Shown here: positions 1 to 15,830 of the stretch, in pieces | How positions within the stretch are numbered: the stretch's first letter is position 1 | Layout of the letters: each line of letters starts with the position of its first letter | Source: a virus | Lineage: Duplodnaviria; Caudoviricetes | Length of the DNA: 64,000 bases | IMG/VR virus record: IMGVR_UViG_3300012952_003952 | Location: 64,001-128,000 of that record | Reading direction: 5' to 3' (one strand) | The notes under the pieces: model-generated | Database searches by the model: none | Told to the model about the DNA's origin: nothing | What the model saw: only the letters and a program-made list of their open reading frames with translations | Position numbers and translations under genes: made by a program

Positions 1-180
1 TATAGAAAGTGTTTTTCTTTATCACACTACGTTGCAATATTCAAGTCTAAAGAATTATATTTGCTCGATACAAATCTATGGAACAGAGATACAATATTTC
101 TATCGATAGATTCTTGGGTTGACATAGACACAAGAGAAAATCTTGATGATTTTTTAGGCAACAATGAAGTTAGTAGATAA
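1..180 (+). CDS. 3' end of a probable acylneuraminate cytidylyltransferase (NeuA/CMP-Kdo synthetase family); 5'-truncated by the window edge and absent from the ORF track
   Basis: Frame 1 is open from base 1 to TAA at 178-180 and reads ...NLWNRDTIFLSIDSWVDIDTRENLDDF. The DIDT.E motif is typical of the C-terminus of CMP-sialic acid synthetases, and a NeuB gene lies 4 kb downstream. Confidence 0.55.
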   Translation, partial: YRKCFSLSHYVAIFKSKELYLLDTNLWNRDTIFLSIDSWVDIDTRENLDDFLGNNEVSR

Positions 181-880
181 AAATGCTCTCGTTACAGGAG
201 CCACTGGAGGCTTAGGCAAAGAAATAGCTTTGTCTCTTGCTGCATCTGGATGCAGAGTTTTTATCACTGGAAGAAATAAAAAAGATTTAGAAAGTTTAGC
301 TAATAATCTCGGACCATTATGTTTAGGCCACCTTGTTTCTGATTTAGAGCAAGAAAAAGAAATAGAGTTATTAGCTATAGCAGCCAATAGAGCGGCTAAT
401 TTTAAATCTGGGGTTATTGATATTCTAATCAATTGTGCTGGAGTTTTTCCAGTTGGAGAAGTTTTAAATACTTCTTTTGAAGATTTTAACTCTTGCTTTA
501 ATATTAATGTAAGAGCTCCATTTTTTCTTTCTAAATTACTTTATCCAAACATGAAGTCTTCCAAATGGGGAAGAATTGTTAACGTTGGTTCTTCTTCTGC
601 GTATGGTGGTTTTGCTGGAACTTCTGTTTACTGTGCTTCTAAACATGCGCTTTTAGGAGCTTCTAGAGCGATGTATAACGAATTTAAAGAAAGCGGAGTA
701 CGGGTGTTTTCTGTTTCTCCTGGTTCTATTCAGACACCAATGGGAAAGAAAGTACTAAACCAAGATTACTCTACTTTTATGAGCCCTGCTGAAATATCTA
801 AGTTTATTTGTGAATTAATTTCTTACGACTCAAACATGATAGCAGAAGAGATTAGGCTTAACAGGGTTATTATCAGATGA
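164..880 (+). CDS. Short-chain dehydrogenase/reductase (classical SDR)
   Basis: TGATGGLG cofactor motif, INCAG, catalytic YCASK. Confidence 0.92.
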   Translation: MKLVDKNALVTGATGGLGKEIALSLAASGCRVFITGRNKKDLESLANNLGPLCLGHLVSDLEQEKEIELLAIAANRAANFKSGVIDILINCAGVFPVGEVLNTSFEDFNSCFNINVRAPFFLSKLLYPNMKSSKWGRIVNVGSSSAYGGFAGTSVYCASKHALLGASRAMYNEFKESGVRVFSVSPGSIQTPMGKKVLNQDYSTFMSPAEISKFICELISYDSNMIAEEIRLNRVIIR

Positions 881-1653
881 GCTATTTAGAAAAAATGTTT
901 TCTCTAGACAATAAAGTCGCAATAGTTACTGGAGCAGCAAGAGGAAATGGCAAAGCGATAGCTGAAGGTTTATTAAAAGCAGGCGCTAAAGTTTATATAG
1001 TTGATATTTTAGAGCAGACACTAAAGACTTGTTCAGATTTCAAGAGCGCTGGTTTTACTAAAGTCGAATATGAAATTTTAGATTTGTCTGATTTTAAAAA
1101 ATTGGAATCTTTCATAGATAAAGTTTATTCTGAAAACAAAAGAATAGATATTCTAGTTAATAATGCAGGAGTATCTTACTCGAAAGATACGCTAAGCTAT
1201 CCAGAAGCAATGTGGGATTATACCCATGCCATTAATTTAAAAGCGCCTTATAAATTATCAAAACTAGTTTCTCGATATATGATTAAAGGCGGAGGTGGAT
1301 CTATTATTAATATCACTAGTTTAAATTCTGAGCTAGCTTTTCCAAACAATCCAGCATATGTTGCTTCGAAAGGAGCTTTAAAACAGCTTACTAAATCTTT
1401 TGCCTTAGACTTAGGAAAGTTTAATATAAGGTGTAACAACGTTGGTCCAGGTTACATGAAAACAGAAATGAATAAAGTAAGTTGGAAAGATTTAGAAAAG
1501 AGAAAAGCTAGATCAGATAAAACCGTTTTAGGTCGTTGGGGAGACCCAGAAGATTTATCCGGCTTAGTGGTGTTTTTAAGTTCGGATTCATCGAGCTACA
1601 TTACCGGACAAGACATATACGTGGACGGTGGATGGCTCATAAAAGGTATATAG
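877..1653 (+). CDS. Short-chain dehydrogenase/reductase (gluconate 5-dehydrogenase/FabG-like)
   Basis: TGAARGNG, NNAG, YVASK and C-terminal YITGQDIYVDGG. ATGA overlap with the preceding SDR. Confidence 0.93.
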   Translation: MSYLEKMFSLDNKVAIVTGAARGNGKAIAEGLLKAGAKVYIVDILEQTLKTCSDFKSAGFTKVEYEILDLSDFKKLESFIDKVYSENKRIDILVNNAGVSYSKDTLSYPEAMWDYTHAINLKAPYKLSKLVSRYMIKGGGGSIINITSLNSELAFPNNPAYVASKGALKQLTKSFALDLGKFNIRCNNVGPGYMKTEMNKVSWKDLEKRKARSDKTVLGRWGDPEDLSGLVVFLSSDSSSYITGQDIYVDGGWLIKGI

Positions 1654-1654
1654 A

Positions 1655-2116
1655 ATGAACGAAAAAGAATATAGCGAAGGCGAATATGGCAATCCAGATT
1701 TAATGTGGGCCGACAATTGTCATGACGCCGTAGAAATATCTGGTAAGAAAGTTGCTTTTTTCTGTGATTCTACTTGTATTGTGTGCACCATGTGTTCTAA
1801 TATAGCTCCAAACAATTTTAGGTTAAGCGATAATGCAGATCACGATATATGCTACAGCCAGCCAAAAGATGAAGAAGAGCTAGATAAATGCTATGAAGCT
1901 CTAACGAATTGTCCAGTTGGAGCTATCGGCCATAATGCTTTTGATAGAAAAGAAGAAATGACTAAAGCTTTCCCCATCGGCCATCGCTTTGCACCTACAA
2001 AATATGATGGAAATGGAAACCTTATAGATCCCACTATGAAATCTTCAGGTACTAGAGAGTATTTAGGATCTACAAAAAAGTCTTTTTGGACTAAGTTTAT
2101 GGGGTGGATTAAATGA
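1655..2116 (+). CDS. Single-cluster ferredoxin with N- and C-terminal extensions
   Basis: CDSTCIVCTMCSNIAP (CxxCxxC) plus distal CYEALTNCPVGAIG. Confidence 0.8.
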   Translation: MNEKEYSEGEYGNPDLMWADNCHDAVEISGKKVAFFCDSTCIVCTMCSNIAPNNFRLSDNADHDICYSQPKDEEELDKCYEALTNCPVGAIGHNAFDRKEEMTKAFPIGHRFAPTKYDGNGNLIDPTMKSSGTREYLGSTKKSFWTKFMGWIK

Positions 2117-2158
2117 TAGAGGTAATATTTATAGCTAACAGCAGAGTCGAGGGATTGT

Positions 2159-3898
2159 ATGACAAAAAAAGCTAAAGTAATGTTTGTTAACCCGATAGTG
2201 GGTGTAGATGAGGGTGTATTGCCTATGGGGCCTGGTATATTAGTTGCAGGCTTGAGACAGGAAGGCCACACAGTAAAAGTATTTGATACCACCCAGTGGA
2301 AGATAGTTTCCGGCCATAGATCATCCGACCACGGCCCGAAAGAAATTAACGAAAAGTACCTTAACTTTGTTCCTGTTACCGCCGGCCATAAAGTTCCTCC
2401 AAAAGTTGTTAAGACAGAAGATGAAGTACTAAATTTATTTCGTGATACAGTCAAAGAGTTTAATCCAGACGTAATTGCTTTTACGGTTCTCTGTAGCCAT
2501 AACTGGGGAATGACAAAACTTCTCATGGAGCGCGCTGGAAAAACTAACGCTAAAGTAATTTTAGGCGGAAAGCATATTATAACAATGGGCAAGGAGCTCA
2601 TACAGACTCCATGGGTTGACGCATGTTGTTTAGGAGATGGAGAGTTAGCTCTTCCTGAATTCGTAAATAATGTTATAAATGGAGAAGACTATAGCAAAAC
2701 TTTAAATCTATCAGTTAAAATAGACGGAAAAATAATTCAGAACCCTCTAGACAAGCTAAACAGAATGGAAGACATTCCGTTTCCAGATTGGACCGATTAC
2801 GATGACAGGCTATTTTATAAGCCTCTTCGTGGCAGAATGTACCGTTATGGATATGTAGAAATAAGCAGAGGTTGCCCATTTAGATGCCCATATTGTCACA
2901 ATGAAAAAGAGCACGATATTTTTGCGGGTCTTGGAAAATTCATGAGGAATAAGCCGATTCCGAAAGTTATTGAAGAGCTGCAATGGATGAAAGACACGTA
3001 TGGAATCGAGATAGTTAAATTTTTAGATGAAGAATTTTTAGCTAAGCCAAAAAAATATCTTAAAGAGTTTGCCAAAGAGTATAAAAAGTTAAACCTCCCG
3101 TTCTTGCTAATGTGTCGACCAGAAAGAATGACTAAAGAAAATGCTGAAATGTTAGCAGACATGGGCTGCGTGCAAGCTTCTATTGGAGTTGAGTCTGGAA
3201 ACGAGTATATCAGAAAAGAAATTTATAAGCGAGGAATGGACAACGAAGTCATGATTCAGGGCTTTAAGAATTTTAGAGATGCTGGAATTTGTACTACTTC
3301 GCTAAACATGATCGGTGGACCATACGAAGATGCAGAAATGATTTTTGATACCATCGAACTTAATAGACATTTGAAAGCTGATGATGTACTTTGTAGTGTT
3401 TTCCAACCATATCGTGGTACTTCTCTTAGAGACCTTTGTATTAAAGAAGGGTTTATGACCGATGATGAAGAGTGCGAAGAAACGACGTTGGAAAATTCAG
3501 TCCTTACAATGCCTCAAATTACGCATGAAGAAATTTGGGGGTTTAGAAGAACGTTTGCTCTTTATATAAGAGCGCCCAAGATTCTTTATCCATTAATTGG
3601 GCTTTACCGCAAGTGGGATAATAAATTTACTCGAATGATTTTCAATGTTCTTTCTAAGCGTTATGGAAAACGAAATGGAGTAACGTACGTCGGCCACGGT
3701 GGAAATGGCAGAGGCTGGACCGAGCGACCTTTTGCTGAAGAAACAGAAAAGCAAGCTCAACTTAGAAAAAAGAAAGAAATGTTTATAGACTATGAGCAGT
3801 CTACTGAATTTACAAAGGGCTATGGCGACCTGTCCCAGCAAGATTGGGAAAAGATTCAGCATTTGGCACAGAAAAAAGAAGAAGCTTCAGCAAAATAA
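2159..3898 (+). CDS. B12-binding radical SAM protein (class B methyltransferase-like)
   Basis: N-terminal cobalamin-binding-like region (PMGPGILVAGL, VILGGKH, GDGE), SRGCPFRCPYC (CxxxCxxC), FLDEEF and GVESG. Confidence 0.92.
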   Translation: MTKKAKVMFVNPIVGVDEGVLPMGPGILVAGLRQEGHTVKVFDTTQWKIVSGHRSSDHGPKEINEKYLNFVPVTAGHKVPPKVVKTEDEVLNLFRDTVKEFNPDVIAFTVLCSHNWGMTKLLMERAGKTNAKVILGGKHIITMGKELIQTPWVDACCLGDGELALPEFVNNVINGEDYSKTLNLSVKIDGKIIQNPLDKLNRMEDIPFPDWTDYDDRLFYKPLRGRMYRYGYVEISRGCPFRCPYCHNEKEHDIFAGLGKFMRNKPIPKVIEELQWMKDTYGIEIVKFLDEEFLAKPKKYLKEFAKEYKKLNLPFLLMCRPERMTKENAEMLADMGCVQASIGVESGNEYIRKEIYKRGMDNEVMIQGFKNFRDAGICTTSLNMIGGPYEDAEMIFDTIELNRHLKADDVLCSVFQPYRGTSLRDLCIKEGFMTDDEECEETTLENSVLTMPQITHEEIWGFRRTFALYIRAPKILYPLIGLYRKWDNKFTRMIFNVLSKRYGKRNGVTYVGHGGNGRGWTERPFAEETEKQAQLRKKKEMFIDYEQSTEFTKGYGDLSQQDWEKIQHLAQKKEEASAK

Positions 3899-3914
3899 TT
3901 TTCTGAAAAAATGA

Positions 3915-3963
3915 ACTACTGAGCAAAAGCTTGTATAATAACAATATGGCTTTTGCTCAGAGT
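3915..3963 (+). promoter_or_regulatory. Inverted repeat enclosing a TATAAT hexamer; operator/promoter or hairpin upstream of neuB
   Basis: CTGAGCAAAAGC (3919-3930) and GCTTTTGCTCAG (3949-3960) form a perfect 12-bp inverted repeat. TATAAT lies at 3934-3939. Confidence 0.5.
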
Positions 3964-3997
3964 CTTTATTTGAGCTTTAAACTAATTGGAGATTTGT

Positions 3998-4861
3998 ATG
4001 TTTAATCCTTATAGGTCTAATAGACCCAACCCATTCATTATTGCTGAAGTGGGAATTAATCATAATGGTGATATAGATTTAGCAAAAAAGCTTATTGATG
4101 TTGCTGTTGATTCTGGTTGCGACGCTGTAAAGTTTCAAAAGAGAGACGTAGAAACAGTGTACACAGAAAAATATTTAGACGGTCATCGAGAAAGCCCTTG
4201 GGGAACTACTCAAAGAGAACAAAAAGAAGGCTTAGAGTTTTCTAAAGAACAATATGAAGAAATAGACAGGTACTGTAAGTCTCAAGGAATTATGTGGACA
4301 GCTTCTGCTTGGGATGAAAAGAGTCAAGATTTTATAAATGAAATGAACGTACCTTTTAATAAGGTTGCTTCTGCGATGGTTACGAAAATAGACTTCTTAG
4401 AAAAAGTAGCCGCTGAAGGAAAGCATGCTTTTGTTTCTACTGGGATGTGCACGATGTCAGATATTGATAAGGCTGTAAAAGTCTTCAAGTCTGCCGGCTG
4501 TCCTTTTACTCTTTTCCACACAGTTTCGACATATCCTTGTAACGATGTTGATTGTAACGTAAAAATGATAGAAACACTTCAAGAAGTGTATGGTTGTCCA
4601 GTTGGATATAGCGGTCACGAACGAGGCTTGCTGCCTTCTATCTTGGCAGTTTCTCTTGGGGCTGTAGCTTTAGAAAGACACATCACGCTTGACCGTACAA
4701 TGTATGGATCAGATCAATCAGCTTCTCTAGAGCCAGAAGGTTTACGTAGACTAGTGAGAGATACGCGCCACGTAAGAGCAACTATGGGAACTGGAGAAAA
4801 GACATATTCTTCAGAAGAGAGGCAAGTTTCAGAAAAGTTGAGGTATTTTGAAAGTGAGTGA
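3998..4861 (+). CDS. neuB: N-acetylneuraminate synthase family (nonulosonic acid synthase), short form
   Basis: IIAEVGINHNGD, DAVKFQKR, STGM, HTVSTYP, GYSGHE and ERHITLDRTMYGSDQSASLEP. The start is moved from TTG 3986 to ATG 3998 because GGAG sits at 3988-3991. Confidence 0.93.
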   Translation: MFNPYRSNRPNPFIIAEVGINHNGDIDLAKKLIDVAVDSGCDAVKFQKRDVETVYTEKYLDGHRESPWGTTQREQKEGLEFSKEQYEEIDRYCKSQGIMWTASAWDEKSQDFINEMNVPFNKVASAMVTKIDFLEKVAAEGKHAFVSTGMCTMSDIDKAVKVFKSAGCPFTLFHTVSTYPCNDVDCNVKMIETLQEVYGCPVGYSGHERGLLPSILAVSLGAVALERHITLDRTMYGSDQSASLEPEGLRRLVRDTRHVRATMGTGEKTYSSEERQVSEKLRYFESE

Positions 4862-5243
4862 AAAGGAAGCTAGATTTCTTCCTAGAAAAACCAAGCTAGA
4901 CATGACTCATGTTGATAAAGGCTGGGGCTGGGAGAGGTGGATTTGTAATGGTCCAGAATATTGTGGAAAACTTTTATTTTTTAATGAAGGCAAACGTTGT
5001 TCTTGGCATGTGCATAGATTGAAAGATGAAGTCTTTTATCTTCAGTCTGGAAAGATGATGATATACTATTCAGAAGACGATGATCTAACCACCGCTAATC
5101 AACTAGTACTTCTTCCTGGCGAAAATTTTCATGTTTATCGAGGGCTAAGACATCAAATGGTCGCGCTAGAAGATAGCGAACTGTTCGAATTCTCAACTCA
5201 GCACTTTGATAGTGATAGCTACAGAATTATAAAGGGTGATTAA
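4848..5243 (+). CDS. Cupin-fold sugar isomerase-like protein
   Basis: KGWGWERW, CSWHVHRLKDEVFYLQSG, and a second cupin motif GLRHQMVALED. Confidence 0.8.
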   Translation: MKVSEKEARFLPRKTKLDMTHVDKGWGWERWICNGPEYCGKLLFFNEGKRCSWHVHRLKDEVFYLQSGKMMIYYSEDDDLTTANQLVLLPGENFHVYRGLRHQMVALEDSELFEFSTQHFDSDSYRIIKGD

Positions 5244-5548
5244 TGATTTATTACGTAGATATCGATGAGACAATATGCGAATACGAAGAGGGAAAGAGAG
5301 AATATCCTCTAGCAAATCCAGTCAAAAAAAATATTAAAAAGATAAACAGCCTTTATGATGCTGGTCATACCATTGTGTATTGGACAGCTAGAGGAGCGAC
5401 TACGGGTATTGATTGGACAGACTTAACTTTAACCCAACTAAAAGAATGGGGAGCTAAATATACGGAAGCTAAATTGGGAAAACCCAATTATGATGTCTTT
5501 ATATGCGATAAGGCTATAAACACTTTAGATTTTTTTAATGGTGAATAA
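5243..5548 (+). CDS. Minimal HAD-superfamily phosphatase (capsule-biosynthesis type)
   Basis: DIDETI motif I, YWTARG motif II, GKP..D..ICDKA motifs III/IV. Confidence 0.8.
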   Translation: MIYYVDIDETICEYEEGKREYPLANPVKKNIKKINSLYDAGHTIVYWTARGATTGIDWTDLTLTQLKEWGAKYTEAKLGKPNYDVFICDKAINTLDFFNGE

Positions 5549-8788: not shown

Positions 8789-8802
8789 ATTTGGAGTTTT
8801 AA

Positions 8803-10440
8803 ATGAAGATAGCAGGACTTTGGTCAGGACACGACTGTTCTTTTTGCGTTTTAGAAGATGGAAAACCAGTAATTCACGCAGAATACGAAAGATACAATAG
8901 AGAGAAGTCACCACCGGGAGATTCAGCAAATTTTATGTTTGAGCGGTACCCTGAGTGGCCCTCAATAACTCATTATGCTTCTGTATATCCAAAAAAGAAG
9001 CTTGCCGAAAGAGAAGTATCTTTTTCAGTTCTAAAAAATCACGTTGAAGCCAACGGAGGAGAGCTTTATTTTTGCTCTCACCACAAAGCCCATGCCGCAA
9101 ACGCTTTTTATTCTAGTAACTTTGAAAAATCTATAATCGTTACTATGGATGGTGGTGGAGTAGAAGACGACCGAGGTGGAGAATCTGCATGCTCTATTTG
9201 GAGAGGAGATGGAACAGAATTAAAACACCTCAAAACTTTCCGGCCGCAAGAAATTAATATTGGCGGAGTTTGGACCCGAGTAACTAGATATGTTTTCAAA
9301 CTACAAAACGGCTGGCCTCGAGGAGGACAAGAAGGTTCCATTATGGCAATGGCTGCATTCGGAGATCCGGAACCCTGGAAAGAAGATTGTTGGAATTGGC
9401 TAACTAAAGACAAAATGTCAGCAGGTTTTAAGCCGCCGACCCAACCAATTGGAGCTACTTCTGACAAAGATCCAACTCACCCGTATTTAGAGCCGTGGGC
9501 AGCTCATGCTAGAATATCGGAGCAGAATCGATTTGATATAGCTGCAGGTTTACAAGATGCCACTGAAGCACTCATAAGACAGATTATTGAATATGCCTTA
9601 AGCTTCGATGCAGACATTGACTCTATTTGCTTAGCAGGTGGAGTAACATTAAACTCTGTTGCGATGGGTAAACTACTAAAATGGTTTCCAAAATTAAAAA
9701 GAGTTTATATACCTCCGGTGCCCTATGACGGTGGTCTTTGCATAGGCGCTGCTCAGGTATTGTGGCATGAAAAGTTAGGTAACCCAAGAATTACTTGGGA
9801 GCATAATTTTACTCCCTATCTAGGAGAAGCCTGGACAGAAGATCATTTTAAGCAAGTTCTAGAAGATCGAAAAGAAGAAATCGAAGTGTCAGATTCTAGC
9901 ACCGAAGATGTTGTTTCTAAACTAAAGGATGGAAACATTGTTTCAGTTTTCAATGGTGCTTCAGAATCAGGTCGCAGAGCTTTAGGAAATAGAAGTATTC
10001 TCGTAGATCCCAGGTCTTCAACCATGAAAGATACTATCAACGAAAAAGTAAAACACCGTCAATGGTATCGTCCATTTGCTCCATCCATACTAGAGTCCGA
10101 AGCTAGAGATTGGTTCGAAGATTACCAAGAAAGTCCATACATGCAGTTTGTTTTAAAGTTCAAAGAAGATAAAGTAGATTTAGTACCTGCAGTAGTCCAT
10201 TTAGACGGAACTGCGCGACTCCAAACAGTTAGAGAAACTGACAACAAGTGGTACTATGATTTTCTAAAAGCTTGGCAAAAAGATACTGGGATTCCAATTA
10301 TACTCAATACTAGTTTTAATGATAGGGAACCTATTTGCGAAAATGTAGAGCATGCTCTAAACTGCTTTTTAGGAACTAATATAGATTACCTCTATTTTCC
10401 AGAGTATAAAAAGATATTGAAGAGAAAGGAAACAGAATAA
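8803..10440 (+). CDS. O-carbamoyltransferase (NodU/CmcH family)
   Basis: GHDCS, ERYNREK, HHKAHAA, DGGG, LAGGVTLN, GRRALGNRSIL, RPFAP, VHLDGTARLQTV and NTSFN. Confidence 0.95.
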   Translation: MKIAGLWSGHDCSFCVLEDGKPVIHAEYERYNREKSPPGDSANFMFERYPEWPSITHYASVYPKKKLAEREVSFSVLKNHVEANGGELYFCSHHKAHAANAFYSSNFEKSIIVTMDGGGVEDDRGGESACSIWRGDGTELKHLKTFRPQEINIGGVWTRVTRYVFKLQNGWPRGGQEGSIMAMAAFGDPEPWKEDCWNWLTKDKMSAGFKPPTQPIGATSDKDPTHPYLEPWAAHARISEQNRFDIAAGLQDATEALIRQIIEYALSFDADIDSICLAGGVTLNSVAMGKLLKWFPKLKRVYIPPVPYDGGLCIGAAQVLWHEKLGNPRITWEHNFTPYLGEAWTEDHFKQVLEDRKEEIEVSDSSTEDVVSKLKDGNIVSVFNGASESGRRALGNRSILVDPRSSTMKDTINEKVKHRQWYRPFAPSILESEARDWFEDYQESPYMQFVLKFKEDKVDLVPAVVHLDGTARLQTVRETDNKWYYDFLKAWQKDTGIPIILNTSFNDREPICENVEHALNCFLGTNIDYLYFPEYKKILKRKETE

Positions 10441-11291
10441 TGCGAAAAACTATTGGCATCATCGGCCAAGGATTCGTAGGATCTTCTGTTAAAGAAGGGC
10501 TAAAAAATTCTTACGAAATAGAAACTTATGATTTAATTTCTGATAAATCAACTGTAGAGTCAGTTGGAGAATTAGTTTGGAAATCTGACGTCATTTTTGT
10601 TTGTTTGCCGACGCCAATGAGAAAAGATGGAAGCTGTGATACTAGAATTATCGAAGGCGCTCTAAGAGAAATAGATAACTGCTTATCAGAAATGGGAAAA
10701 AGCAAATTATTGATTACTAAGTCTACTGTCCCACCAAACACTCACAATGATTGGAGCAGTAAGTACGAAAATTTGAATCTTGTATTTAATCCTGAATTTC
10801 TCACCGAAGCAAATGCTGCAGAAGATTTTAAAAATCAAAATAGAATAGTTTTAGGCGGCCACCCATCTAATTGTAGCGAAGCTCAAGAGATGTTTTCCAA
10901 AGTTTTTCCGAACGTTGATTATTTCTGCACAACTTTTGTTACTTCTGAACTAATAAAATATTTCATCAACTGCTTTCTTGCGACTAAAGTATCCTTTGCA
11001 AATGAATTTTATCAAATATGCGATTCACTAAATGCTGATTATTCAAGAGTAGTAGATGGAGCCTTATTAGATAAAAGAATAGGGACATCTCATTTAAGCG
11101 TTCCTGGACCAGATGGAGATTTTGGATTTGGCGGCCACTGTTTTCCGAAAGATCTTAACGCAATGATATATACGGCTAGTACCCTTGACATCTTTCCAAC
11201 TGTTTTAAAAGCTGCTAAAGCTAAAAATTCAGAAGTTAGAAACAACAAAGACTGGGAATTGATGAAAGGACGAGCAGTAAGTGATGATTGA
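10440..11291 (+). CDS. ugd: UDP-glucose/GDP-mannose dehydrogenase family protein lacking the C-terminal domain
   Basis: GQGFVG, CLPTP, KSTVPP, FNPEFL, K..INCFLATKVSFANE and GFGGHCFPKD. Only 283 aa long. Confidence 0.85.
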   Translation: MRKTIGIIGQGFVGSSVKEGLKNSYEIETYDLISDKSTVESVGELVWKSDVIFVCLPTPMRKDGSCDTRIIEGALREIDNCLSEMGKSKLLITKSTVPPNTHNDWSSKYENLNLVFNPEFLTEANAAEDFKNQNRIVLGGHPSNCSEAQEMFSKVFPNVDYFCTTFVTSELIKYFINCFLATKVSFANEFYQICDSLNADYSRVVDGALLDKRIGTSHLSVPGPDGDFGFGGHCFPKDLNAMIYTASTLDIFPTVLKAAKAKNSEVRNNKDWELMKGRAVSDD

Positions 11292-12174
11292 TAAAGATAA
11301 GAAAATTTTAGTAACTGGCGGTCTTGGATTTGTAGGTTCTAATTTAGTAGATGAACTAATTTCTTTTGGCTGTAAAGATATTACTGTTATAGACGATCTT
11401 TCTTCTGAGTCTTCATCTTCGTCATACATGAGAAGTGGCGTAAAATATTTCGAAAGAGATATTGTTGATTTACCTATCATGGAAAAAGAATTAAAAAACT
11501 TTGACGTTGTTTTTCATCTTGCTGCTTTAGCCAGGTTGCAACCTTCATTTTCAGACCCGACAAGATATTTTCAAGTCAACTCATTAGCTACTTTTTATCT
11601 TTTAGATTATTTAAGAAGAAATAATCCTGAAGCCAAGGTTGTTTACGCGGGTTCTAGCACCGCGTTTGGTGGAACACTTTTAAACCCGTATGCTTTTGCA
11701 AAACACACGGGTGAAGATATCTGCAGGCTATTTTCTAAAAATTATGACATGAACACTGCTGTTGCTAGATTTTTTAATGTTTATGGCCCACGCCAGCCGA
11801 TTACTGGAGAGTGGGCTACTGTTATAGGAAAATTTGAGCAACAGTATCTCAACGGAGAACCTTTGACTGTCGTAGGAGATGGAACTCAAAAAAGAGACTT
11901 CACACATATTTCAGATATAATTTCCGGATTAATATGTTTAGCTAACGGAAATCACAAAGGAGAAATATTTTCTCTCGGAACCGGTCAGAATTACCCTCTA
12001 TTTGAAGTAGCGTTTGCGTTTAAGGATAATATTAAGTTTATTCCTCCAAGACCAGGAGAGGCCAAAGAGACCCTTGCAGATATATCAGCTATGACAAACG
12101 CTACAGACTGGAAGCCTGAATCTAATTTAATGGAATACATAGCTAAATTTAAAAAAGAGAATCTATACAATTAG
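11281..12174 (+). CDS. NAD-dependent epimerase/dehydratase (extended SDR, GalE-like)
   Basis: TGGLGFVG, HLAA, YAFAK, RFFNVYGP and GDGTQKRDFTHI. Confidence 0.9.
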   Translation: MMIDKDKKILVTGGLGFVGSNLVDELISFGCKDITVIDDLSSESSSSSYMRSGVKYFERDIVDLPIMEKELKNFDVVFHLAALARLQPSFSDPTRYFQVNSLATFYLLDYLRRNNPEAKVVYAGSSTAFGGTLLNPYAFAKHTGEDICRLFSKNYDMNTAVARFFNVYGPRQPITGEWATVIGKFEQQYLNGEPLTVVGDGTQKRDFTHISDIISGLICLANGNHKGEIFSLGTGQNYPLFEVAFAFKDNIKFIPPRPGEAKETLADISAMTNATDWKPESNLMEYIAKFKKENLYN

Positions 12175-12200
12175 CCACTCTGTATATAAGATTTTATATA

Positions 12201-13022
12201 ATGAGTTTTCCAACCGAAAAGCCGCATATTTCTTATTCAGAAGTCAAGAATTGGAAAGAATGCCCATACAGACATAAGCTAGCCTATATAGACAAGATTG
12301 ATTTAGGATCTCCTTCTCCTTATTTAGATTTTGGAACTAACGTCCACGAAGGATGTGAAAGTTTTTTAAATAGTGGGACCATCCCTAGAGAAAAACTTTT
12401 AACCAATATTAGAGACGCTTGGAAAAAGCACGGATTCGACAACCCAGAATGGTATGAAAAAATGCCAAAATGGTATAAGCACGTTCCAGTAGATGAATGG
12501 TGCGAATGGGCTTCTAATATGTGGGATGATGTTCCAAGCTTTTTAGATAAAGAATTTCCAGGTTGGGAGCGCGTTAGTGCTGAAGAAATGCTTTATGAAG
12601 AAATAGAAAATCATGACGTGAAATTCAAGGGTTTCATAGATGCTATTATTAAAGTGCCTAGAAAAAATGGGACATACAAATACTGGATTATTGATTGGAA
12701 AACTGCAAAATCTTATGGCTGGGATAAACGTAAAAGCCGTGATTTTATGATGCAAGCCCAACTTGTTTTGTATAAACATTATTGGGCAACTAAAAATAAT
12801 ATTCCATTCAAAGATGTTGGTTGCGCTTTTGTGCTTTTAAAACGAGGCGGAAAACCAGGAAATATGTGCGGAATACTAAAAGTTTCAGCCGGTCCAAAAG
12901 CGCTAGAACAAGCTAACAAGATGGTTAATAGCATGATAAAAAACGTGTACAGAGGATTTTTTGTTAAAAATAGAATGAGCTGTACTTTTTGCGATTACAA
13001 AGATACAGAGCATTGTACTTAA
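12201..13022 (+). CDS. PD-(D/E)XK nuclease, Cas4/AddB-like
   Basis: SYSEVKNWKECP, FGTNVH, KGFIDAII, IIDWKT, Q...Y, and C-terminal CTFCDYKDTEHC, a 4-Cys staple pattern. Confidence 0.85.
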   Translation: MSFPTEKPHISYSEVKNWKECPYRHKLAYIDKIDLGSPSPYLDFGTNVHEGCESFLNSGTIPREKLLTNIRDAWKKHGFDNPEWYEKMPKWYKHVPVDEWCEWASNMWDDVPSFLDKEFPGWERVSAEEMLYEEIENHDVKFKGFIDAIIKVPRKNGTYKYWIIDWKTAKSYGWDKRKSRDFMMQAQLVLYKHYWATKNNIPFKDVGCAFVLLKRGGKPGNMCGILKVSAGPKALEQANKMVNSMIKNVYRGFFVKNRMSCTFCDYKDTEHCT

Positions 13023-13043
13023 CAAATTACGATAAAGTTGCAT

Positions 13044-13072
13044 GGGCCATTTTTACCGAGTGGCCCTTTTTT
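13044..13072 (+). terminator. Rho-independent terminator
   Basis: GGGCCA (13044-49) pairs with TGGCCC (13061-66), followed by T6. It lies directly after the nuclease stop. Confidence 0.7.
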
Positions 13073-13110
13073 ATTAAAATAGATTAGTCTGGAAGAGGTT
13101 TTAACATCAG

Positions 13111-14367
13111 ATGAAAAAGAAAAAGAAAATATTACTATTATCTGACCACGCTCTAAGCACGTCAGGTGTAGGTACTCAAAGTAGACATTTAATAAATGGT
13201 TTGATGACTAAGTATCCGGGTGAGTGGAGCGTGAGGCAATTTGGAGCGGCTATAAAACATGAAAATTATGATGTAGTCCAAGTTACTGAAGACTTCATTA
13301 TAAAGCCAATAGACGGCTTCGGCAATCCAGATATGATCAGGTTAGCTTTAATTACAGAAAAGCCAGATATATTAATGTTGTTTACAGATCCTCGTTTTTT
13401 CGTGTGGCTCTGGGAAATGGAAGATGAAATTCATCAAATTTGCCCGATTGTTTACTGGCATGTGTGGGACAATTACCCATATCCAGATTTTAACACTCCG
13501 TTTTATGAATCAACAGATTTAATAAATTGCCACTCTCATCTAACTTATGAGATGGTAAGTGAAAAATTTCCGGAAAAAACTAATTTTGTTCCTCACGCAC
13601 TTCCGCCTGATTTGTTCTTCCCATTACCTAAAGAAGAAAAATTAAATCTAAAAGAACAAGCTCTTGGAAAAGATAAGAAAGACGACTTTGTCGTATTTTG
13701 GATGAATAGAAATGCTAGAAGAAAAAGAACAAATGATGTTTTAGAAGCTTGGAGCATTTTTGTTAAAAACCTTGAAGAAAAACATGGCAAACGCGACGTA
13801 ACTCTTTTAATGCATACAGACCCCAACGATAACGAAGGTCCAAACCTATACTCTACTGCTGATTTATTTGGAATACAAGACACCGTAATGTTTTCTACAC
13901 ATAGAGTTGGGTTTGAGCAAATAAACATGATGCATAACATATCGGATGCGTGCTTGAATATAAGTTACGCCGAAGGTTTTGGGTTGGCTACTTTAGAGGC
14001 CATGCAAGCTGGAACTCCTATCATAGCTCAAAAAACCGGTGGCTTAACTAGGCAAGTTGTTGATCACCGTGACGGTAGTGAAAATGGAGTTGCTCTAGAC
14101 GTAGATTTAAGAACTCTTGTAGGCTCTCAACAAGTTCCATACATTTACGAAGATTATTGTTCTAACGAAAACATTGCAGAGGCAATAATGAAATTGTATG
14201 AAAAAACACCAGAAGAAAAAGAAGAGCTATCTCAAAAAGTTTTAGATTATGTCAATTCAGAATTTTCTTTTGATAAAACGATAGAGCTTTGGCATGAAAC
14301 TTTAGTTGAAACTTTAGAAAATTGGGAAACAAGAAGAGACCGTAAATTCTTAGGAGAAATAAAGTGA
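13111..14367 (+). CDS. Glycosyltransferase family 4 (GT-B fold)
   Basis: ILLLSDH...SGVG, NRNARRKR, and SYAEGFGLATLEAMQAGTPII. Confidence 0.92.
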   Translation: MKKKKKILLLSDHALSTSGVGTQSRHLINGLMTKYPGEWSVRQFGAAIKHENYDVVQVTEDFIIKPIDGFGNPDMIRLALITEKPDILMLFTDPRFFVWLWEMEDEIHQICPIVYWHVWDNYPYPDFNTPFYESTDLINCHSHLTYEMVSEKFPEKTNFVPHALPPDLFFPLPKEEKLNLKEQALGKDKKDDFVVFWMNRNARRKRTNDVLEAWSIFVKNLEEKHGKRDVTLLMHTDPNDNEGPNLYSTADLFGIQDTVMFSTHRVGFEQINMMHNISDACLNISYAEGFGLATLEAMQAGTPIIAQKTGGLTRQVVDHRDGSENGVALDVDLRTLVGSQQVPYIYEDYCSNENIAEAIMKLYEKTPEEKEELSQKVLDYVNSEFSFDKTIELWHETLVETLENWETRRDRKFLGEIK

Positions 14368-15521
14368 AAAAACGCGTATTGTTTAGAGGGCCGTTGCTTA
14401 CACTTTCTGGATATGGAGTTCATAGCAGGCAAGTATTTCAATGGCTAGACTCTAGAGAAGATTTTGAAGTGAAGAGCCAAGTTCTCCCATGGGGAATTAC
14501 TCCTTGGATTCTTGACGGGAATAGGCAAAACGGCCTAATTGGAAAAATATTCGAATCTACTAACTTAGATAATTTATCTGGTTTCGACTACTCTTTTCAA
14601 GTGCAGCTTCCAAACGAGTGGGATCCTTCGCTAGCTAATTTTAATGTTGGAATAACTGCCGCAGTAGAAACAGATAGATGCAGCCCGCAGTGGATAGAAG
14701 CGTGTAATAAAATGGACCACATTGTAGTTCCTTCTGAACACACTAAAAAAGTTTTAGAAAACTCAGGCCCACTCTCGGTGCCAGTTACAGTAGTACCAGA
14801 GAGCTATCCGGACGGCTTAATTCCATCTGGAGAATCTTTAGGTCTCGATACTGATTTTAATTTTTTAATGTTTGGTCAGATTACTGGAAACAATCCTTGG
14901 AACGATAGAAAAAACACTTACTTTTGTCTTAAGTGGCTTTGCGAAATTTTTAAAGATGATCCTGACGTTGGGATAGTAATTAAGACAAATCACGGAAAAA
15001 ATACTAAAGTAGACAGAAAATTAACTCAGTCGATGTTAAAAAATCTCTTAAGCGAATGCAGGACAGGAGAGTATCCAAAAGTTTATTTGTTACACGGAGA
15101 ATTAACAGAAGAAGAAATAGCAGATGTTTATTCAGATGAATCTATAAAAGCTTTAGTGGCGCCTTCAAGAGGCGAAGGTTATGGTTTACCACTTTTAGAA
15201 GCAGCTGCATGTTCTCTGCCGGTAATAGCAACAAACTGGTCCGGACATCTAGACTTCTTAAATAAAGGAAAGTTTATAAAATTAAACTATGAACTAAAAC
15301 CAATCCATGAAAGTAGAGTAGATAACGCAATATTTTTAAACGGTTTTCGGTGGGCTGAAGTTTCAGAAGAAGATTTTAAAAAGAAGGTTTCTAAGTTTAG
15401 AAAAGCAAGCTCAATTCCTAAAGAATGGGCGAAAGATTTATCTTCTACTATCCGAGAAGAATATTCGCAAGATGCTATTTCTGAAAGATATAATTTGTTA
15501 TTGAGAGAATTAAATAAGTGA
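14364..15521 (+). CDS. Glycosyltransferase family 4 (GT-B fold)
   Basis: GPLLTLSGYG, DRKN, and PSRGEGYGLPLLEAAACSLPVIATNWSGH. Confidence 0.92.
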   Translation: MKKRVLFRGPLLTLSGYGVHSRQVFQWLDSREDFEVKSQVLPWGITPWILDGNRQNGLIGKIFESTNLDNLSGFDYSFQVQLPNEWDPSLANFNVGITAAVETDRCSPQWIEACNKMDHIVVPSEHTKKVLENSGPLSVPVTVVPESYPDGLIPSGESLGLDTDFNFLMFGQITGNNPWNDRKNTYFCLKWLCEIFKDDPDVGIVIKTNHGKNTKVDRKLTQSMLKNLLSECRTGEYPKVYLLHGELTEEEIADVYSDESIKALVAPSRGEGYGLPLLEAAACSLPVIATNWSGHLDFLNKGKFIKLNYELKPIHESRVDNAIFLNGFRWAEVSEEDFKKKVSKFRKASSIPKEWAKDLSSTIREEYSQDAISERYNLLLRELNK

Positions 15522-15820: not shown

Positions 15821-15830
15821 TGGAGTTTCT

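What the first reader, a model, noticed from the sequence alone, without database searches (positions are those of the whole stretch)
1..15521. 15-kb phage cluster for making, tailoring and transferring an unusual sugar, directly upstream of the virion genes
About 15 sugar-related genes form an apparently complete pathway: precursor enzymes (Ugd, two epimerases, cupin), nonulosonic-acid synthesis and activation (NeuB, HAD, NeuA-like), redox tailoring (two SDRs), decoration (SAM methyltransferase, B12 radical SAM, carbamoyltransferase) and transfer (GT2, two GT4). Large phages are known to carry LPS-like clusters. This one is unusually complete and has no flippase, polymerase or export gene in the window, which favours a cytoplasmic acceptor (virion protein or DNA) over host-surface conversion.
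Basis: partly seen in the sequence, partly recalled or inferred. Interest (0 to 1): 0.7.

Follow-up and report, generated by a model that had tools for sequence, protein, structure and literature searches.

The report
Hypervariable sugar-building island in marine jumbo phage
The 15-kb sugar gene cluster is real, but it is only the right-hand part of a 36-kb, 40-gene island of soluble enzymes for several rare sugars; the island sits between glycosyltransferases that thousands of related marine phages conserve, its middle differs from phage to phage, and what the sugars are attached to is still unknown.

Summary
Observation confirmed and enlarged. The cluster continues 20.6 kb upstream: 40 co-directional ORFs with 12 glycosyltransferase domains. 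Upstream lie an ADP-heptose branch, a 3,6-dideoxyhexose cassette, a 3-amino-sugar branch and an animal-type (GT29) sialyltransferase for the nonulosonic acid. So there are several sugars, not one.

Five related phages share one architecture. A bifunctional GT is the left anchor. Then come 17-29 kb of mostly non-homologous sugar genes. The right anchor is a short dehydrogenase, nuclease, GT4 and GT4, followed by a sigma-like gene and the baseplate. Both anchor GTs are 62-87% identical across thousands of phage-sized contigs.

No polytopic membrane protein, flippase, polymerase or priming transferase occurs in this record. A complete 293-kb relative likewise has no flippase- or polymerase-like membrane protein.

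Interpretation partly supported. The missing export genes do not by themselves point to a cytoplasmic acceptor, because lipooligosaccharide-type assembly also needs none. DNA is disfavoured: cultured Flavobacterium phage immuto has the homologous module and no sugar on its DNA.

Best guess is a variable glycan on phage particle proteins (about 0.4). This scan has noted GT29-type cassettes in other phages before.

The parts
1..180 (+). 3' end of a CMP-nonulosonate synthetase-like gene (whole gene G000:C1:63533-64180, 215 aa)
   Evidence: PF02348 CTP_transf_3. NCBIfam PseF 60.2 bits, below the cut-off of 205.7.
164..880 (+). Short-chain dehydrogenase 1. Part of a cassette that is absent from close relative G001.
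   Evidence: adh_short E 4e-46. No G001 homologue.
877..1653 (+). Short-chain dehydrogenase 2 (KduD/gluconate-5-DH-like). Same cassette.
   Evidence: adh_short_C2 E 4e-59.
1655..2116 (+). 4Fe-4S ferredoxin, the likely electron donor for the radical SAM enzyme.
   Evidence: Fer4_13 E 1.7e-12. A ferredoxin also follows the NeuA-like gene in relative L075.
2159..3898 (+). Cobalamin-binding radical SAM enzyme, a candidate sugar C-methyltransferase or rearranging enzyme.
   Evidence: Radical_SAM E 1e-24 plus a B12-binding domain. Best NCBIfam hits are HpnJ and B12-rSAM methylases, all below cut-off. The candidate late-promoter motif ATATTTA lies at 2125.
3919..3960 (+). 12-bp-stem hairpin followed by a T-rich tail, closing the SDR-SDR-Fdx-rSAM cassette.
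   Evidence: Read from the sequence.
3986..4861 (+). NeuB-family nonulosonate synthase, without the C-terminal SAF domain.
   Evidence: PF03102 244.6 bits. TIGR03569 255.8 bits against a cut-off of 399.65, matching profile positions 1-273 of 329.
4848..5243 (+). Small cupin, a candidate sugar-phosphate isomerase.
   Evidence: Cupin_2 E 4e-5. Weak PDB hits to L-ribose isomerases. Fused to the HAD in G001 and adjacent to the heptose kinase in G003.
5243..5548 (+). Minimal HAD phosphatase (101 aa, DIDET motif).
   Evidence: PDB 9iqw E 6.5e-10. Homologues in 390 phage records, beside sugar isomerase, kinase and nucleotidyltransferase genes.
5549..6583 (+). NDP-sugar epimerase/dehydratase (extended SDR).
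   Evidence: Epimerase E 5e-35. 88% identical in G001.
6576..7673 (+). SAM-dependent methyltransferase. G001 has a different methyltransferase in this place.
   Evidence: Methyltransf_11/31/12. G001 has an unrelated 252-aa methyltransferase here.
7763..8788 (+). GT2 (GT-A) glycosyltransferase.
   Evidence: PF00535 E 2e-14.
8803..10440 (+). NodU/CmcH-type O-carbamoyltransferase.
   Evidence: Carbam_trans_C E 5.5e-61 and Carbam_trans_N. 89% identical in G001.
10440..11291 (+). Short NDP-sugar 6-dehydrogenase-like protein. First gene of the conserved right anchor.
   Evidence: TIGR03026 191.2 bits against a cut-off of 189.8. Catalytic Cys and Rossmann motif kept, C-terminal domain absent. Present in G001-G005.
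11281..12174 (+). NDP-sugar epimerase/decarboxylase-like SDR.
   Evidence: Epimerase E 5.5e-45. Found in 6 related loci.
12201..13022 (+). PD-(D/E)XK nuclease. It always precedes the GT4 pair and is not a sugar gene.
   Evidence: PDDEXK_1 E 1.3e-23. The same neighbourhood occurs in phages immuto and Mel-JY01.
13044..13066 (+). Intrinsic-terminator-like hairpin (9 bp, 5 GC) with a T-run, between the nuclease and the GT4 pair.
13111..14367 (+). GT4a: conserved, phage-specific GT-B glycosyltransferase with the EX7E motif at residue 288.
   Evidence: Glycos_transf_1. EX7E motif. N-terminal domain has 3973 clusters, the top 120 of them 69-84% identical, all on contigs of at most 322 kb.
14364..15521 (+). 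GT4b: second conserved GT-B glycosyltransferase with the EX7E motif at residue 271.
   Evidence: Present in every related locus that reaches far enough upstream.
15795..16568 (+). Sigma-factor-like protein (gp55-like), downstream of the GT4 pair with only a 100-aa ORF between them.
   Evidence: Atlas features. hhalign to T4 gp55 E 0.0016. Almost all Foldseek hits are sigma factors, but weak at E 0.03-0.8.
19254..21598 (+). First recognisable baseplate wedge genes (164 aa and 615 aa).
   Evidence: phrog_43 and phrog_219.

Best explanation
The finding is the right-hand part of a ~36-kb 'glycan island' (G000:C1:43397-79521, window -20603 to 15521) in an uncultured marine T4-related jumbo phage. 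The island has three layers.

1. Left anchor. A conserved bifunctional glycosyltransferase of 648 aa: a compact GT-B domain plus a GT-A domain.

2. Variable middle of 17-29 kb. In this phage it encodes:
- ADP-L-glycero-D-manno-heptose synthesis (HldA, HldC, HldD, with the cupin and small HAD as probable stand-ins for GmhA and GmhB) plus a GT9;
- an NDP-3,6-dideoxyhexose cassette (nucleotidyltransferase, 4,6-dehydratase, RfbH-like 3-dehydrase, reductase);
- a 3-amino-3,6-dideoxyhexose branch (RmlB, FdtA, aminotransferase);
- a CMP-nonulosonate branch (NeuB, NeuA-like, two conserved unknown proteins, GT29-type sialyltransferase);
- tailoring enzymes (two SDRs, ferredoxin with B12-radical SAM, methyltransferase, carbamoyltransferase, PhyH dioxygenase);
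- several GT2 and GT4 enzymes.

3. Right anchor. A conserved short NDP-sugar dehydrogenase, an epimerase, a nuclease, GT4a and GT4b.

Shown: gene content, island boundaries, conservation of the anchors, turnover of the middle, and absence of any membrane step.

Inferred: all enzymes are soluble, so the glycan is assembled in the cytoplasm of the infected cell. The conserved anchor GTs add the inner sugars to an acceptor that is the same across the phage lineage. The variable enzymes build an outer part that is under diversifying selection. The acceptor I think most likely is one or more phage particle proteins (fibre, tail or capsid). That would give each phage type its own sugar coat, as in mycobacteriophage and giant-virus particle glycosylation.
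For: Gene content:
- Pfam and NCBIfam.
- HldD passes its equivalog cut-off (303.8 > 274.6).
- RfbH-like scores 358.9 bits.
- The GT29-like protein carries sialylmotifs L and S and hits pig ST3Gal-I at E 1e-10.

No membrane step:
- None of the 40 ORFs has two or more hydrophobic segments.
- No Wzx, Wzy_C, Bac_transf or WecA family in this record.
- Complete relative G001 also has no flippase- or polymerase-like polytopic protein by hydrophobic-segment scan.
- Zero TM proteins in the islands of G002-G004 or in the partial island of G005.

Architecture:
- G000-G004 share the left anchor (E 1e-250 to 1e-285) and the right anchor.
- Island genes are mostly non-homologous between distant relatives: only 1-8 of 20-34 have any homologue.
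- The distant islands still contain GT2 and epimerase genes.
- Close relative G001 shows cassette swaps.

Anchors are conserved and phage-specific:
- Left anchor: more than 2253 clusters at 62-87% identity, all on contigs of at most 293 kb.
- GT4a N-terminal (acceptor-side) domain: 3973 clusters, the top 120 at 69-84% identity, all on contigs of at most 322 kb. Bacterial and PDB GT4s match only the donor half.
- The order Nuc-GT4a-GT4b-...-baseplate is kept in every locus that reaches far enough, about 17 loci.
- GT4a homologues, N-domain included, occur in phages of Bacteroidota, Cyanobacteria, Rhodothermus and an actinobacterium. This argues for a phage-intrinsic acceptor rather than one host envelope.

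Position:
- In four of the five genomes that reach the left anchor, the island lies between a Gly/Ser/Thr-rich repetitive fibre-like gene and the baseplate block.

Left anchor fold:
- pLDDT 90. GT-B at Z 19.4. The GT-A domain is closest to SunS, a cytoplasmic peptide glycosyltransferase, at Z 14.9.
Against: - No direct evidence for any acceptor.
- The GT4 pair is co-oriented with a sigma-like gene, as T4 a-gt is with gene 55. It may therefore be expressed before the late virion genes.
- The candidate late-promoter motif ATATTTA is found inside the island only before the radical SAM gene.
- Heptose, dideoxyhexose, nonulosonate and carbamoyl groups are classic LPS components. LOS-type assembly also needs no flippase.
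- In G004 the left anchor follows PhoH directly, with no fibre gene between.
- G000 is a fragment, aligning to about 39-277 kb of the 293-kb G001.
Confidence: 0.4

Rival explanations
1. Host-envelope remodelling of the lipooligosaccharide type. The soluble phage GTs act at the cytoplasmic face of the inner membrane, on the host's lipid A-core or on a host lipid-linked intermediate. Housekeeping MsbA/Lpt (or host Wzx/WaaL) exports the altered glycolipid. This changes the cell surface during infection, for example to block superinfection or to stop progeny sticking to debris. The variable middle would then mirror the surface types of different host strains.
For: - The content resembles LOS or LPS-core loci: a GT9 heptosyltransferase with a full ADP-heptose branch; NeuB, a CMP-synthetase and a sialyltransferase; a 3,6-dideoxyhexose cassette; a carbamoyltransferase.
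- LOS assembly needs no flippase, polymerase or priming transferase in the locus (own knowledge), so fit this reading equally well.
- The published reading of similar clusters in cyanomyoviruses P-SSM2, S-SCSM1 and S-SCSM2R is host-surface modification (PMC12801897).
Against: - The anchor GTs are phage-specific and 62-87% identical across thousands of contigs.
- GT4a relatives occur in phages of hosts with very different envelopes, including a Gram-positive actinobacterium.
- The GT9 shares only a weak donor-domain match with WaaC/WaaF (E 0.06-0.5) and no acceptor-domain match.
- The sialyltransferase is GT29, not a bacterial LOS type.
- No Kdo or lipid A genes are present.
- A strictly lytic jumbo phage has little time to re-export LPS.
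Confidence: 0.28
2. Two unrelated things lie side by side. The conserved GTs (left anchor, GT4a/b) have one fixed job. The variable middle is exchangeable host-derived cargo that feeds nucleotide-sugar pools, or that glycosylates some other target in the infected cell (host proteins such as pilins, flagellins or S-layer proteins, a small molecule, or a storage/osmolyte glycoside).
For: - A terminator separates the GT4 pair from the upstream genes.
- The middle turns over almost completely between relatives while the anchors do not.
- Hairpin-bounded cassettes such as SDR-SDR-Fdx-rSAM come and go.
- The best NCBIfam matches of GT4a are to small-molecule GTs (BshA, MshA), although only in the donor domain.
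Against: - The same bounded slot is used for sugar genes in all five genomes.
- The right anchor has its own sugar-nucleotide enzymes (short dehydrogenase plus epimerase).
- With 12 GT domains there are far more transferases than a pool-feeding role would need.
Confidence: 0.15
3. DNA hypermodification. Some or all of the transferases put sugars on the phage's modified cytosines, as T4 a-gt/b-gt and the RB69/HY126 arabinosylation systems do. The island would vary because of an arms race with glycan-sensing restriction enzymes.
For: - Positional parallel with T4: 47 (nuclease), a-gt, 55 (sigma) against Nuc, GT4a, GT4b, sigma-like.
- The small HAD belongs to the family found in the isomerase-kinase-phosphatase-nucleotidyltransferase modules of RB69-type phages, whose HY126 member prepares UDP-arabinose for DNA (PMC13326640).
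- Earlier notes of this scan infer hydroxymethylcytosine DNA in this genome (e1-5367055, unchecked here).
Against: - Flavobacterium phage immuto has the homologous nuclease-GT4-GT4 module plus a sugar island. Its DNA shows only dA, dC, dT and formyl-preQ1 by LC-UV-MS (PMC10516641).
- 12 GT domains and nine-carbon, heptose and dideoxy sugars go far beyond any known DNA glycan (own knowledge).
- A separate hmC-modifying module lies about 120 kb away in this genome, according to unchecked earlier notes of this scan.
- GT4a/b show no sequence relation to a-gt.
Confidence: 0.08

Closest known systems
LPS / 'cell wall synthesis and modification' gene clusters of large marine T4-like cyanomyoviruses (P-SSM2, S-SCSM1, S-SCSM2R; PMC12801897)
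   Same: - Marine T4-related myoviruses of about 200-250 kb with many soluble GTs (up to 13) and NDP-sugar epimerases.
- An octulosonate/nonulosonate-type branch (KdsA/KdsB there).
- No experimentally known acceptor.
   Different: - Here there are 40 genes in one block, bounded by conserved anchor GTs, with near-complete turnover of the middle.
- Here there is a GT29-type sialyltransferase, an ADP-heptose branch, a 3,6-dideoxyhexose branch and B12-radical SAM tailoring.
- No close sequence relationship to those clusters was found (megablast had no match in phages).
Flavobacterium phage vB_FspM_immuto (MW353176) nuclease-GT-GT plus sugar island, and the same trio in Microcystis phage Mel-JY01 and Rhodothermus phage RM378
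   Same: - A homologous GT4a (32-34% identity over 90-97% of its length) is preceded by a PD-(D/E)XK nuclease and followed by a second GT and further sugar genes.
- immuto is cultured, so the question can be tested there.
   Different: - The immuto island is about 11 kb and has different enzymes.
- About 20 kb of small genes separate it from the baseplate.
- No nonulosonate or heptose branch is annotated.
Mycobacteriophage virion O-glycosylation (Freeman et al. 2023, cited in PMC12619734 and PMC12801897)
   Same: Phage-encoded soluble GTs, acting in the cytoplasm, decorate particle proteins. This is the mechanism I favour.
   Different: - Those phages carry one to four GTs and use host sugar nucleotides.
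- There the glycans on the capsid and tail-tube C-termini were shown by MS. Here nothing has been shown, and the system has 12 GT domains and its own sugar pathways.
Giant-virus (Mimivirus/Megavirinae) fibril glycosylation clusters (own knowledge: Piacente, Notaro, De Castro, Abergel and colleagues)
   Same: - Virus-encoded synthesis of rare bacterial-type sugars plus GTs.
- No lipid carrier.
- Clade-specific cluster content.
- The glycan sits on surface fibrils.
   Different: - Those are eukaryotic viruses with clusters of about 6-12 genes.
- There is no sequence relationship.
- The acceptor and glycan structures are known there.
Lipooligosaccharide loci of Campylobacter, Neisseria and Haemophilus (own knowledge)
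   Same: - Heptosyltransferase, neuB/neuA, sialyltransferase and assorted GT2/GT4 genes.
- No flippase or polymerase.
- A hypervariable middle between conserved flanks.
   Different: - Those loci are bacterial, have lipid A-Kdo as acceptor, and use GT42/GT52/GT80 sialyltransferases.
- The phage GT9 acceptor domain shows no similarity to WaaC/WaaF.
T4 genes 47 / a-gt / 55 and the RB69/HY126 DNA arabinosylation pathway (PMC13326640)
   Same: - The gene order nuclease, GT-B transferase, late sigma factor.
- The same family of small HAD bisphosphate phosphatase.
   Different: - a-gt is GT72, a single enzyme, and acts on DNA.
- Here two GT4 enzymes are attached to a 30-kb sugar island, and the cultured homologue-bearing phage has unglycosylated DNA.

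Membership tests
GT29 sialyltransferases (CAZy GT29 / PF00777) | Profile match above the Pfam gathering score. | tested here: met
   L001:17326-17961 scores 69.1 bits against a cut-off of 23. The G001 orthologue scores 78 bits.
GT29 sialyltransferases (CAZy GT29 / PF00777) | Sialylmotif L (CMP-sugar binding) and sialylmotif S. | tested here: met
   Alignment to pig ST3Gal-I (2wml), E 1.2e-10. CVVGNSGNL...IDSCDVVIR aligns with motif L, PSSGIS... aligns with motif S, and HYYD aligns with motif III HYWE.
GT29 sialyltransferases (CAZy GT29 / PF00777) | Catalytic His of the VS motif; type II membrane anchor and stem; transfer from a CMP-nonulosonate. | tested here: inconclusive
   The protein is 211 aa with no anchor or stem. 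The alignment stops before the VS motif. Activity cannot be tested with these tools.
NeuB-type nonulosonate synthases | NeuB TIM-barrel domain. | tested here: met
   PF03102 244.6 bits, covering profile positions 1-241 of 241.
NeuB-type nonulosonate synthases | Equivalog-level identity (Neu5Ac, Pse or Leg synthase) and a C-terminal SAF domain. | tested here: not met
   TIGR03569 255.8 bits, below 399.65. PseI 191 bits, below 340.25. The match ends at profile position 273 of 329, and the next gene starts at 4848. No NeuC-type 2-epimerase is found in the record. The sugar made is therefore undetermined.
ADP-L-glycero-D-manno-heptose pathway with GT9 transferase | HldD epimerase, HldC adenylyltransferase, HldA kinase. 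| tested here: met
   HldD 303.8 bits, above its cut-off of 274.6. HldC 163.5 bits (cut-off 181.5). HldA 121 bits, a partial match.
ADP-L-glycero-D-manno-heptose pathway with GT9 transferase | GmhA (SIS) isomerase and GmhB phosphatase. | tested here: inconclusive
   No SIS_2 match in the record. The cupin plus small HAD are candidate replacements: they are fused in G001, the cupin is adjacent to HldA in G003, and the HAD family sits in isomerase/kinase/NTase modules in 390 phage records.
ADP-L-glycero-D-manno-heptose pathway with GT9 transferase | GT9 heptosyltransferase acting on lipid A-Kdo. | tested here: inconclusive
   PF01075 58 bits, above the cut-off of 22. Only the donor domain resembles WaaF/WaaC (E 0.06-0.5). 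The acceptor is unknown.
Wzx/Wzy- or ABC-dependent O-antigen/capsule locus | Priming phosphoglycosyl transferase, flippase, polymerase or export proteins. | tested here: not met
   No PF01943, PF04932, PF02397 or PF00953 match in six frames of G000. By hydrophobic-segment scan, no flippase-like polytopic ORF in G000 or in complete G001, and none in the islands of G002-G004 or the partial island of G005.
Phage virion glycosylation systems (mycobacteriophage type) | Soluble phage GTs encoded in or next to the structural genes. | tested here: met
   The island lies between a fibre-like gene and the baseplate block. However, a sigma-like gene lies between GT4b and the baseplate genes.
Phage virion glycosylation systems (mycobacteriophage type) | Glycan demonstrated on capsid or tail proteins. 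| not testable with these tools
   Needs virion glycoproteomics.
T-even type DNA glycosylation | Glycosylated nucleosides in virion DNA; a GT related to a-gt or b-gt. | tested here: inconclusive
   Only positional synteny with T4 47/a-gt/55. Cultured immuto, which has homologous GTs, has no sugar on its DNA. This phage's own DNA cannot be tested here.

The most novel reading that the evidence does not exclude
An abundant lineage of marine jumbo phages carries a true 'serotype locus' for its own particle. Conserved phage-specific glycosyltransferases prime virion proteins. A 17-29-kb exchangeable cassette set then builds a strain-specific outer glycan from heptose, dideoxy- and amino-sugars and a nonulosonic acid, the last added by an animal-type (GT29) sialyltransferase. 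This would be the most elaborate self-glycosylation system known in any bacteriophage and would imply strong, unrecognised selection on phage surface sugars in the sea.
Probability: 0.33. Interest if true: 0.85.

Novelty: new variant of a known kind. Interest (0 to 1): 0.62.

Why it matters
Sugar-gene clusters in large marine phages have been noted since P-SSM2, but their purpose has never been settled. Three results here make the question testable.

1. The cluster is organised like a bacterial O-antigen or capsule locus: conserved flanks with an exchangeable middle. That points to diversifying selection on the glycan itself.

2. The flanking transferases are phage-specific and among the most conserved genes of a very abundant lineage. 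They are therefore good handles for biochemistry and for surveying thousands of contigs.

3. A cultured phage (Flavobacterium phage immuto) carries the homologous core module. Its DNA is already known to be sugar-free, so virion against host-envelope glycosylation can be decided at the bench.

The island also holds enzymes of independent interest:
- a 200-aa soluble GT29 sialyltransferase, with only a dozen environmental relatives found by the word-indexed, length-limited search;
- a truncated NDP-sugar dehydrogenase;
- a ferredoxin with a B12-radical SAM sugar-tailoring pair;
- a possible cupin replacement for GmhA.

Tried and rejected
- Megablast of window 1-16000 against 50,697 phage records: no match.
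- The search for related loci with the radical SAM protein alone: no relatives.
- T4 late promoter TATAAATA: 6 sites against 6.3 expected, so not used.
- Sigma-70-type promoter scan: no excess (59 against 56.5).
- A candidate late motif, ATATTTA, is enriched about 10-fold in intergenic DNA and precedes many large virion genes. Inside the island it occurs only before the radical SAM gene, so the timing of island expression stays open.
- PHROGs gave nothing for the large neighbouring proteins or for the 1592-aa hydrophobic protein. Pfam also found no family in that protein, so it is not a hidden Wzy or ligase by these searches.
- The two conserved unknown proteins of the nonulosonate module stay unassigned. 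unk344 is a ParB_N-like N-domain plus a widespread unnamed C-domain. unk204 may have a nucleotidyltransferase-like fold.
- A GtfA/GtfB-like catalytic-plus-chaperone pair was considered for GT4a/GT4b and dropped, because both keep the EX7E motif. The complex-prediction job was therefore not used.
- The reading of the HAD as a nonulosonate-9-phosphate phosphatase (Kdn-type route) was considered and kept only as a minority reading. This HAD family occurs with sugar kinase/nucleotidyltransferase modules, and it occurs in G002 and G004, which lack NeuB.
- I could not verify whether the phage belongs to the published 'moraphages' (four core GT orthogroups, T4-like core, PhoH, Bacteroidota hosts; PMC12619734). 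No shared identifiers were found.

Full report
**Where the window lies.** The window is bases 64001-128000 of a single 241,978-bp virus record, G000. IMG/VR classes it as linear, and CheckV gives 57% completeness. Against its closest complete relative, G001 (IMGVR_UViG_3300007513_000001, 293,409 bp, direct terminal repeats), it aligns to about 39-277 kb. Earlier notes of this scan describe the genome as an uncultured marine T4-related jumbo phage with a hydroxymethylcytosine-modifying module far downstream (not re-tested here).

**The observation.** The list with coordinates is given under the observation check. Four points need correcting.

- The 'HAD' is the 101-aa ORF at 5243-5548. Pfam misses it, but it carries a DIDET motif and matches PDB 9iqw at E 6.5e-10.
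- The NeuA-like gene crosses the window start (C1:63533-64180).
- A ferredoxin (1655-2116) and a PD-(D/E)XK nuclease (12201-13022) lie inside the cluster.
- The 'Ugd' is a conserved short form. It keeps the Rossmann motif and the catalytic Cys but lacks the UDP-binding C-terminal domain.

Almost all NCBIfam matches fall below the curated cut-offs, so exact substrates are not given by homology.

**The cluster is much larger.** The upstream flank (L001, L002) continues with sugar genes for 20.6 kb. The first gene is a 648-aa GT, the left anchor. The genes that follow, grouped by likely role, are:

- glycosyltransferases: a GT2, a weak GT4, a GT4, a GT9 heptosyltransferase-like protein and two weak GT2s;
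- oxidoreductases: a GFO/IDH/MocA-type and an FAD/NAD-type enzyme;
- ADP-heptose branch: HldD (303.8 bits, above its equivalog cut-off of 274.6), HldC and HldA;
- 3-amino-3,6-dideoxyhexose branch: FdtA, an RmlB-like 4,6-dehydratase and a second aminotransferase;
- 3,6-dideoxyhexose cassette: an RmlA-like nucleotidyltransferase, a reductase-like SDR, an RfbH-like PMP-dependent 3-dehydrase (358.9 bits) and a second 4,6-dehydratase;
- a PhyH-type dioxygenase;
- nonulosonate module: a GT29 sialyltransferase-like protein, two unknown proteins (344 and 204 aa) and the NeuA-like gene.

In all there are 40 consecutive ORFs (C1:43397-79521, about 36 kb, 15% of the record). They include 11 GT genes and, counting the extra domain found by folding, 12 GT domains.

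**The sialyltransferase-like protein.** The GT29 match is solid. It scores 69 bits, and sialylmotifs L and S and motif III align with pig ST3Gal-I at E 1e-10. The protein is a bare 211-aa catalytic domain. A word-indexed, length-limited search of 5.8 billion proteins found only 12 environmental homologues of about 200 aa plus a fish ST3Gal1. Two of their contigs show the same module: GT29, unknown (~330 aa), unknown (~205 aa), CTP_transf_3, ferredoxin. The two unknown proteins therefore belong to the nonulosonate branch. One has a ParB_N-like N-domain and an unnamed, widespread C-domain.

**No membrane step.**
- A hydrophobicity scan finds no ORF with two or more transmembrane-like segments among the 40.
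- In the whole record, the only ORF with more than four such segments is a 1592-aa protein with no family match.
- Six-frame profile searches for Wzx, Wzy_C, Bac_transf and WecA-type families are negative in G000, while the control genomes ring.
- Because G000 is a fragment, I fetched all of the complete G001 and repeated the hydrophobicity scan. The only ORF with more than three segments there is the homologue of the same long protein.

**Comparative anatomy.** G001 has a syntenic cluster with 40-90% identity, but with cassette swaps.

- G000 alone has the dideoxyhexose cassette, the SDR-SDR-ferredoxin-radical SAM cassette (closed by a hairpin at 3919-3960) and its methyltransferase.
- G001 instead has a PseB-like dehydratase, two formyltransferases and another methyltransferase.
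- The cupin and HAD are one fused gene in G001 in the order HAD-cupin. In G000 they are two genes in the order cupin, HAD.

Four more distant relatives are 42-50% identical in the baseplate protein. G002-G004 show the full plan: PhoH, usually a fibre-like gene, the left anchor (E 1e-250 to 1e-285), then 17-26 kb of 20-30 soluble ORFs, then short dehydrogenase, (epimerase), nuclease, GT4a, GT4b, a 100-aa ORF, a 257-aa ORF and on to the baseplate. G005 shows the right half but does not reach the left anchor. Only 1-8 island genes have any homologue in a distant relative's island, yet these islands also contain GT2 and epimerase genes. Every related locus that reaches far enough upstream of the baseplate gene, about 17 in all, has Nuc-GT4a-GT4b in the same order.

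**The anchors.**
- The left anchor has more than 2253 clusters at 62-87% identity, on contigs of at most 293 kb.
- The N-terminal, acceptor-side domain of GT4a has 3973 clusters. The top 120 are 69-84% identical, on contigs of at most 322 kb.
- Both anchors are at least as conserved as the baseplate protein (42-86%).
- Both GT4s keep the EX7E motif.
- AlphaFold2 (pLDDT 90) shows that the left anchor is a compact GT-B domain (residues 20-310; Z 19.4 to sucrose-phosphate synthase, BshA, PglA and WaaG) joined to a GT-A domain (310-626; Z 14.9 to the cytoplasmic peptide S-glycosyltransferase SunS).

**Cultured relatives and the DNA question.** GT4a homologues, including the N-domain, occur in several phages:
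- Flavobacterium phage immuto, where a PD-(D/E)XK nuclease, GT and GT are followed by about 8 kb of further sugar genes;
- Microcystis phage Mel-JY01;
- Rhodothermus phage RM378;
- a 484-kb uncultured phage;
- Tetrasphaera phage TJE1.

The DNA of immuto has been analysed by LC-UV-MS. It contains dA, dC, dT and formyl-preQ1 in place of dG, with no sugar-bearing nucleoside (PMC10516641). That argues against DNA as the target of the homologous module.

Two facts keep DNA alive as a minority reading.
- The 257-aa ORF after the GT4 pair looks like a sigma factor: Atlas features, hhalign to T4 gp55 at E 0.0016 over gp55 residues 12-152, and a model whose Foldseek hits are nearly all sigma factors, though weak. 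T4 has the order 47 (nuclease), a-gt, 55.
- The small HAD belongs to a family present in 390 phage records, next to sugar isomerase, kinase and nucleotidyltransferase genes. Its HY126 member is reported to prepare UDP-arabinose for DNA (PMC13326640).

The same observation favours reading the cupin and HAD as the missing GmhA/GmhB-like steps of the heptose branch, rather than as a nonulosonate-9-phosphate phosphatase.

**What it most likely does.** Shown: a bounded, entirely soluble, hypervariable glycan-building island with conserved, phage-specific flanking transferases. Inferred: the glycan is built in the cytoplasm on an acceptor that is constant across the lineage, with a variable outer part under diversifying selection. 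I rank the acceptors as follows.

- Particle proteins (0.4). The anchors are phage-specific and conserved, GT4a relatives occur in phages of hosts with unrelated envelopes, the island lies between a fibre-like gene and the baseplate block, and there are precedents in mycobacteriophages and giant viruses.
- Host LOS/LPS-core-type remodelling (0.28). The sugar repertoire is LPS-like, and LOS assembly equally lacks flippase and polymerase genes.
- Anchors and cargo with separate roles (0.15).
- DNA (0.08).

Expression timing could not be settled. A terminator-like hairpin (13044-13066) separates the GT4 pair from the upstream genes. The pair runs without gaps into the sigma-like gene. The candidate late motif ATATTTA is nearly absent from the island. 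No RNA run holds the stretch.

**Relation to the literature and to this scan.**
- Large sugar-gene sets in marine cyanomyoviruses are published (22 genes and 13 GTs in S-SCSM2R, said to be perhaps the highest number in a marine phage) and are read as host-surface modification without experiments (PMC12801897).
- A 2025 paper on aquatic jumbo 'moraphages' lists four core GT orthogroups alongside a T4-like core and PhoH (PMC12619734). This lineage may be the same or close, but I could not verify that.
- This scan has already noted GT29-like and NeuA cassettes and variable virion glycan islands in other phage genomes (e1-3919489, e1-5376472, e1-4542570). The kind of system is therefore recurrent.
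- What is new here is the size (40 genes), the locus-like architecture with conserved anchors, and the particular enzyme set.

Noticed in passing
window 15795-16568: The 257-aa ORF after the GT4 pair looks like a gp55-type sigma factor. It is 95% identical in G001 and 39-54% identical in distant relatives. The order nuclease, GT, GT, sigma mirrors T4 genes 47, a-gt and 55.
   Followed up: partly
G000:C1:37775-43165 (L002:13775-19165), just upstream of the island: A 1796-aa Gly/Ser/Thr-rich protein with at least 7 copies of a ~150-aa repeat (FFVSGS...FGGD..SG). It has no Pfam or PHROG hit and is preceded by the ATATTTA motif. It is probably a long fibre. Its length varies from 663 to 1796 aa among relatives, and G004 lacks it.
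   Followed up: partly
whole genome, e.g. window 2125, 40174, 40463, 42733, 43352, 55749: ATATTTA is about 10-fold enriched in intergenic DNA and sits 20-100 nt upstream of many large virion genes. It is a candidate late promoter and differs from T4's TATAAATA, which shows no excess.
   Followed up: partly
G000:C1:155204-159982 (L006), outside the window: A 1592-aa protein with about 10 hydrophobic segments between residues 640 and 1130 and no family match. It is conserved in G001 (1585 aa). It may be a tape-measure or ejection/membrane-insertion protein.
   Followed up: no
window 4848-5548 versus G001:103022-103735: The cupin and the minimal HAD are separate genes in the order cupin, HAD in this phage, but one fused protein in the order HAD-cupin in the 293-kb relative. 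This is a domain-order permutation between close relatives.
   Followed up: yes
L001:17898-18932 and L001:18916-19530: Two conserved unknown proteins lie between the GT29-like and NeuA-like genes. The first has a ParB_N-like N-domain joined to a C-domain that recurs, often twice, in hundreds of unnamed ~500-aa proteins. The second may have a nucleotidyltransferase-like fold.
   Followed up: partly
L002:3461-5401, 10179-11354, 11713-13161: Upstream of the fibre-like gene the phage encodes a PrkA-type AAA serine kinase, a weak tubulin/FtsZ-like protein and a PIN-PhoH fusion.
   Followed up: no
window 10440-11291: An NDP-sugar 6-dehydrogenase that lacks its nucleotide-binding C-terminal domain is conserved at 283-327 aa in at least 8 relatives. 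This suggests an altered substrate or a partner protein.
   Followed up: partly
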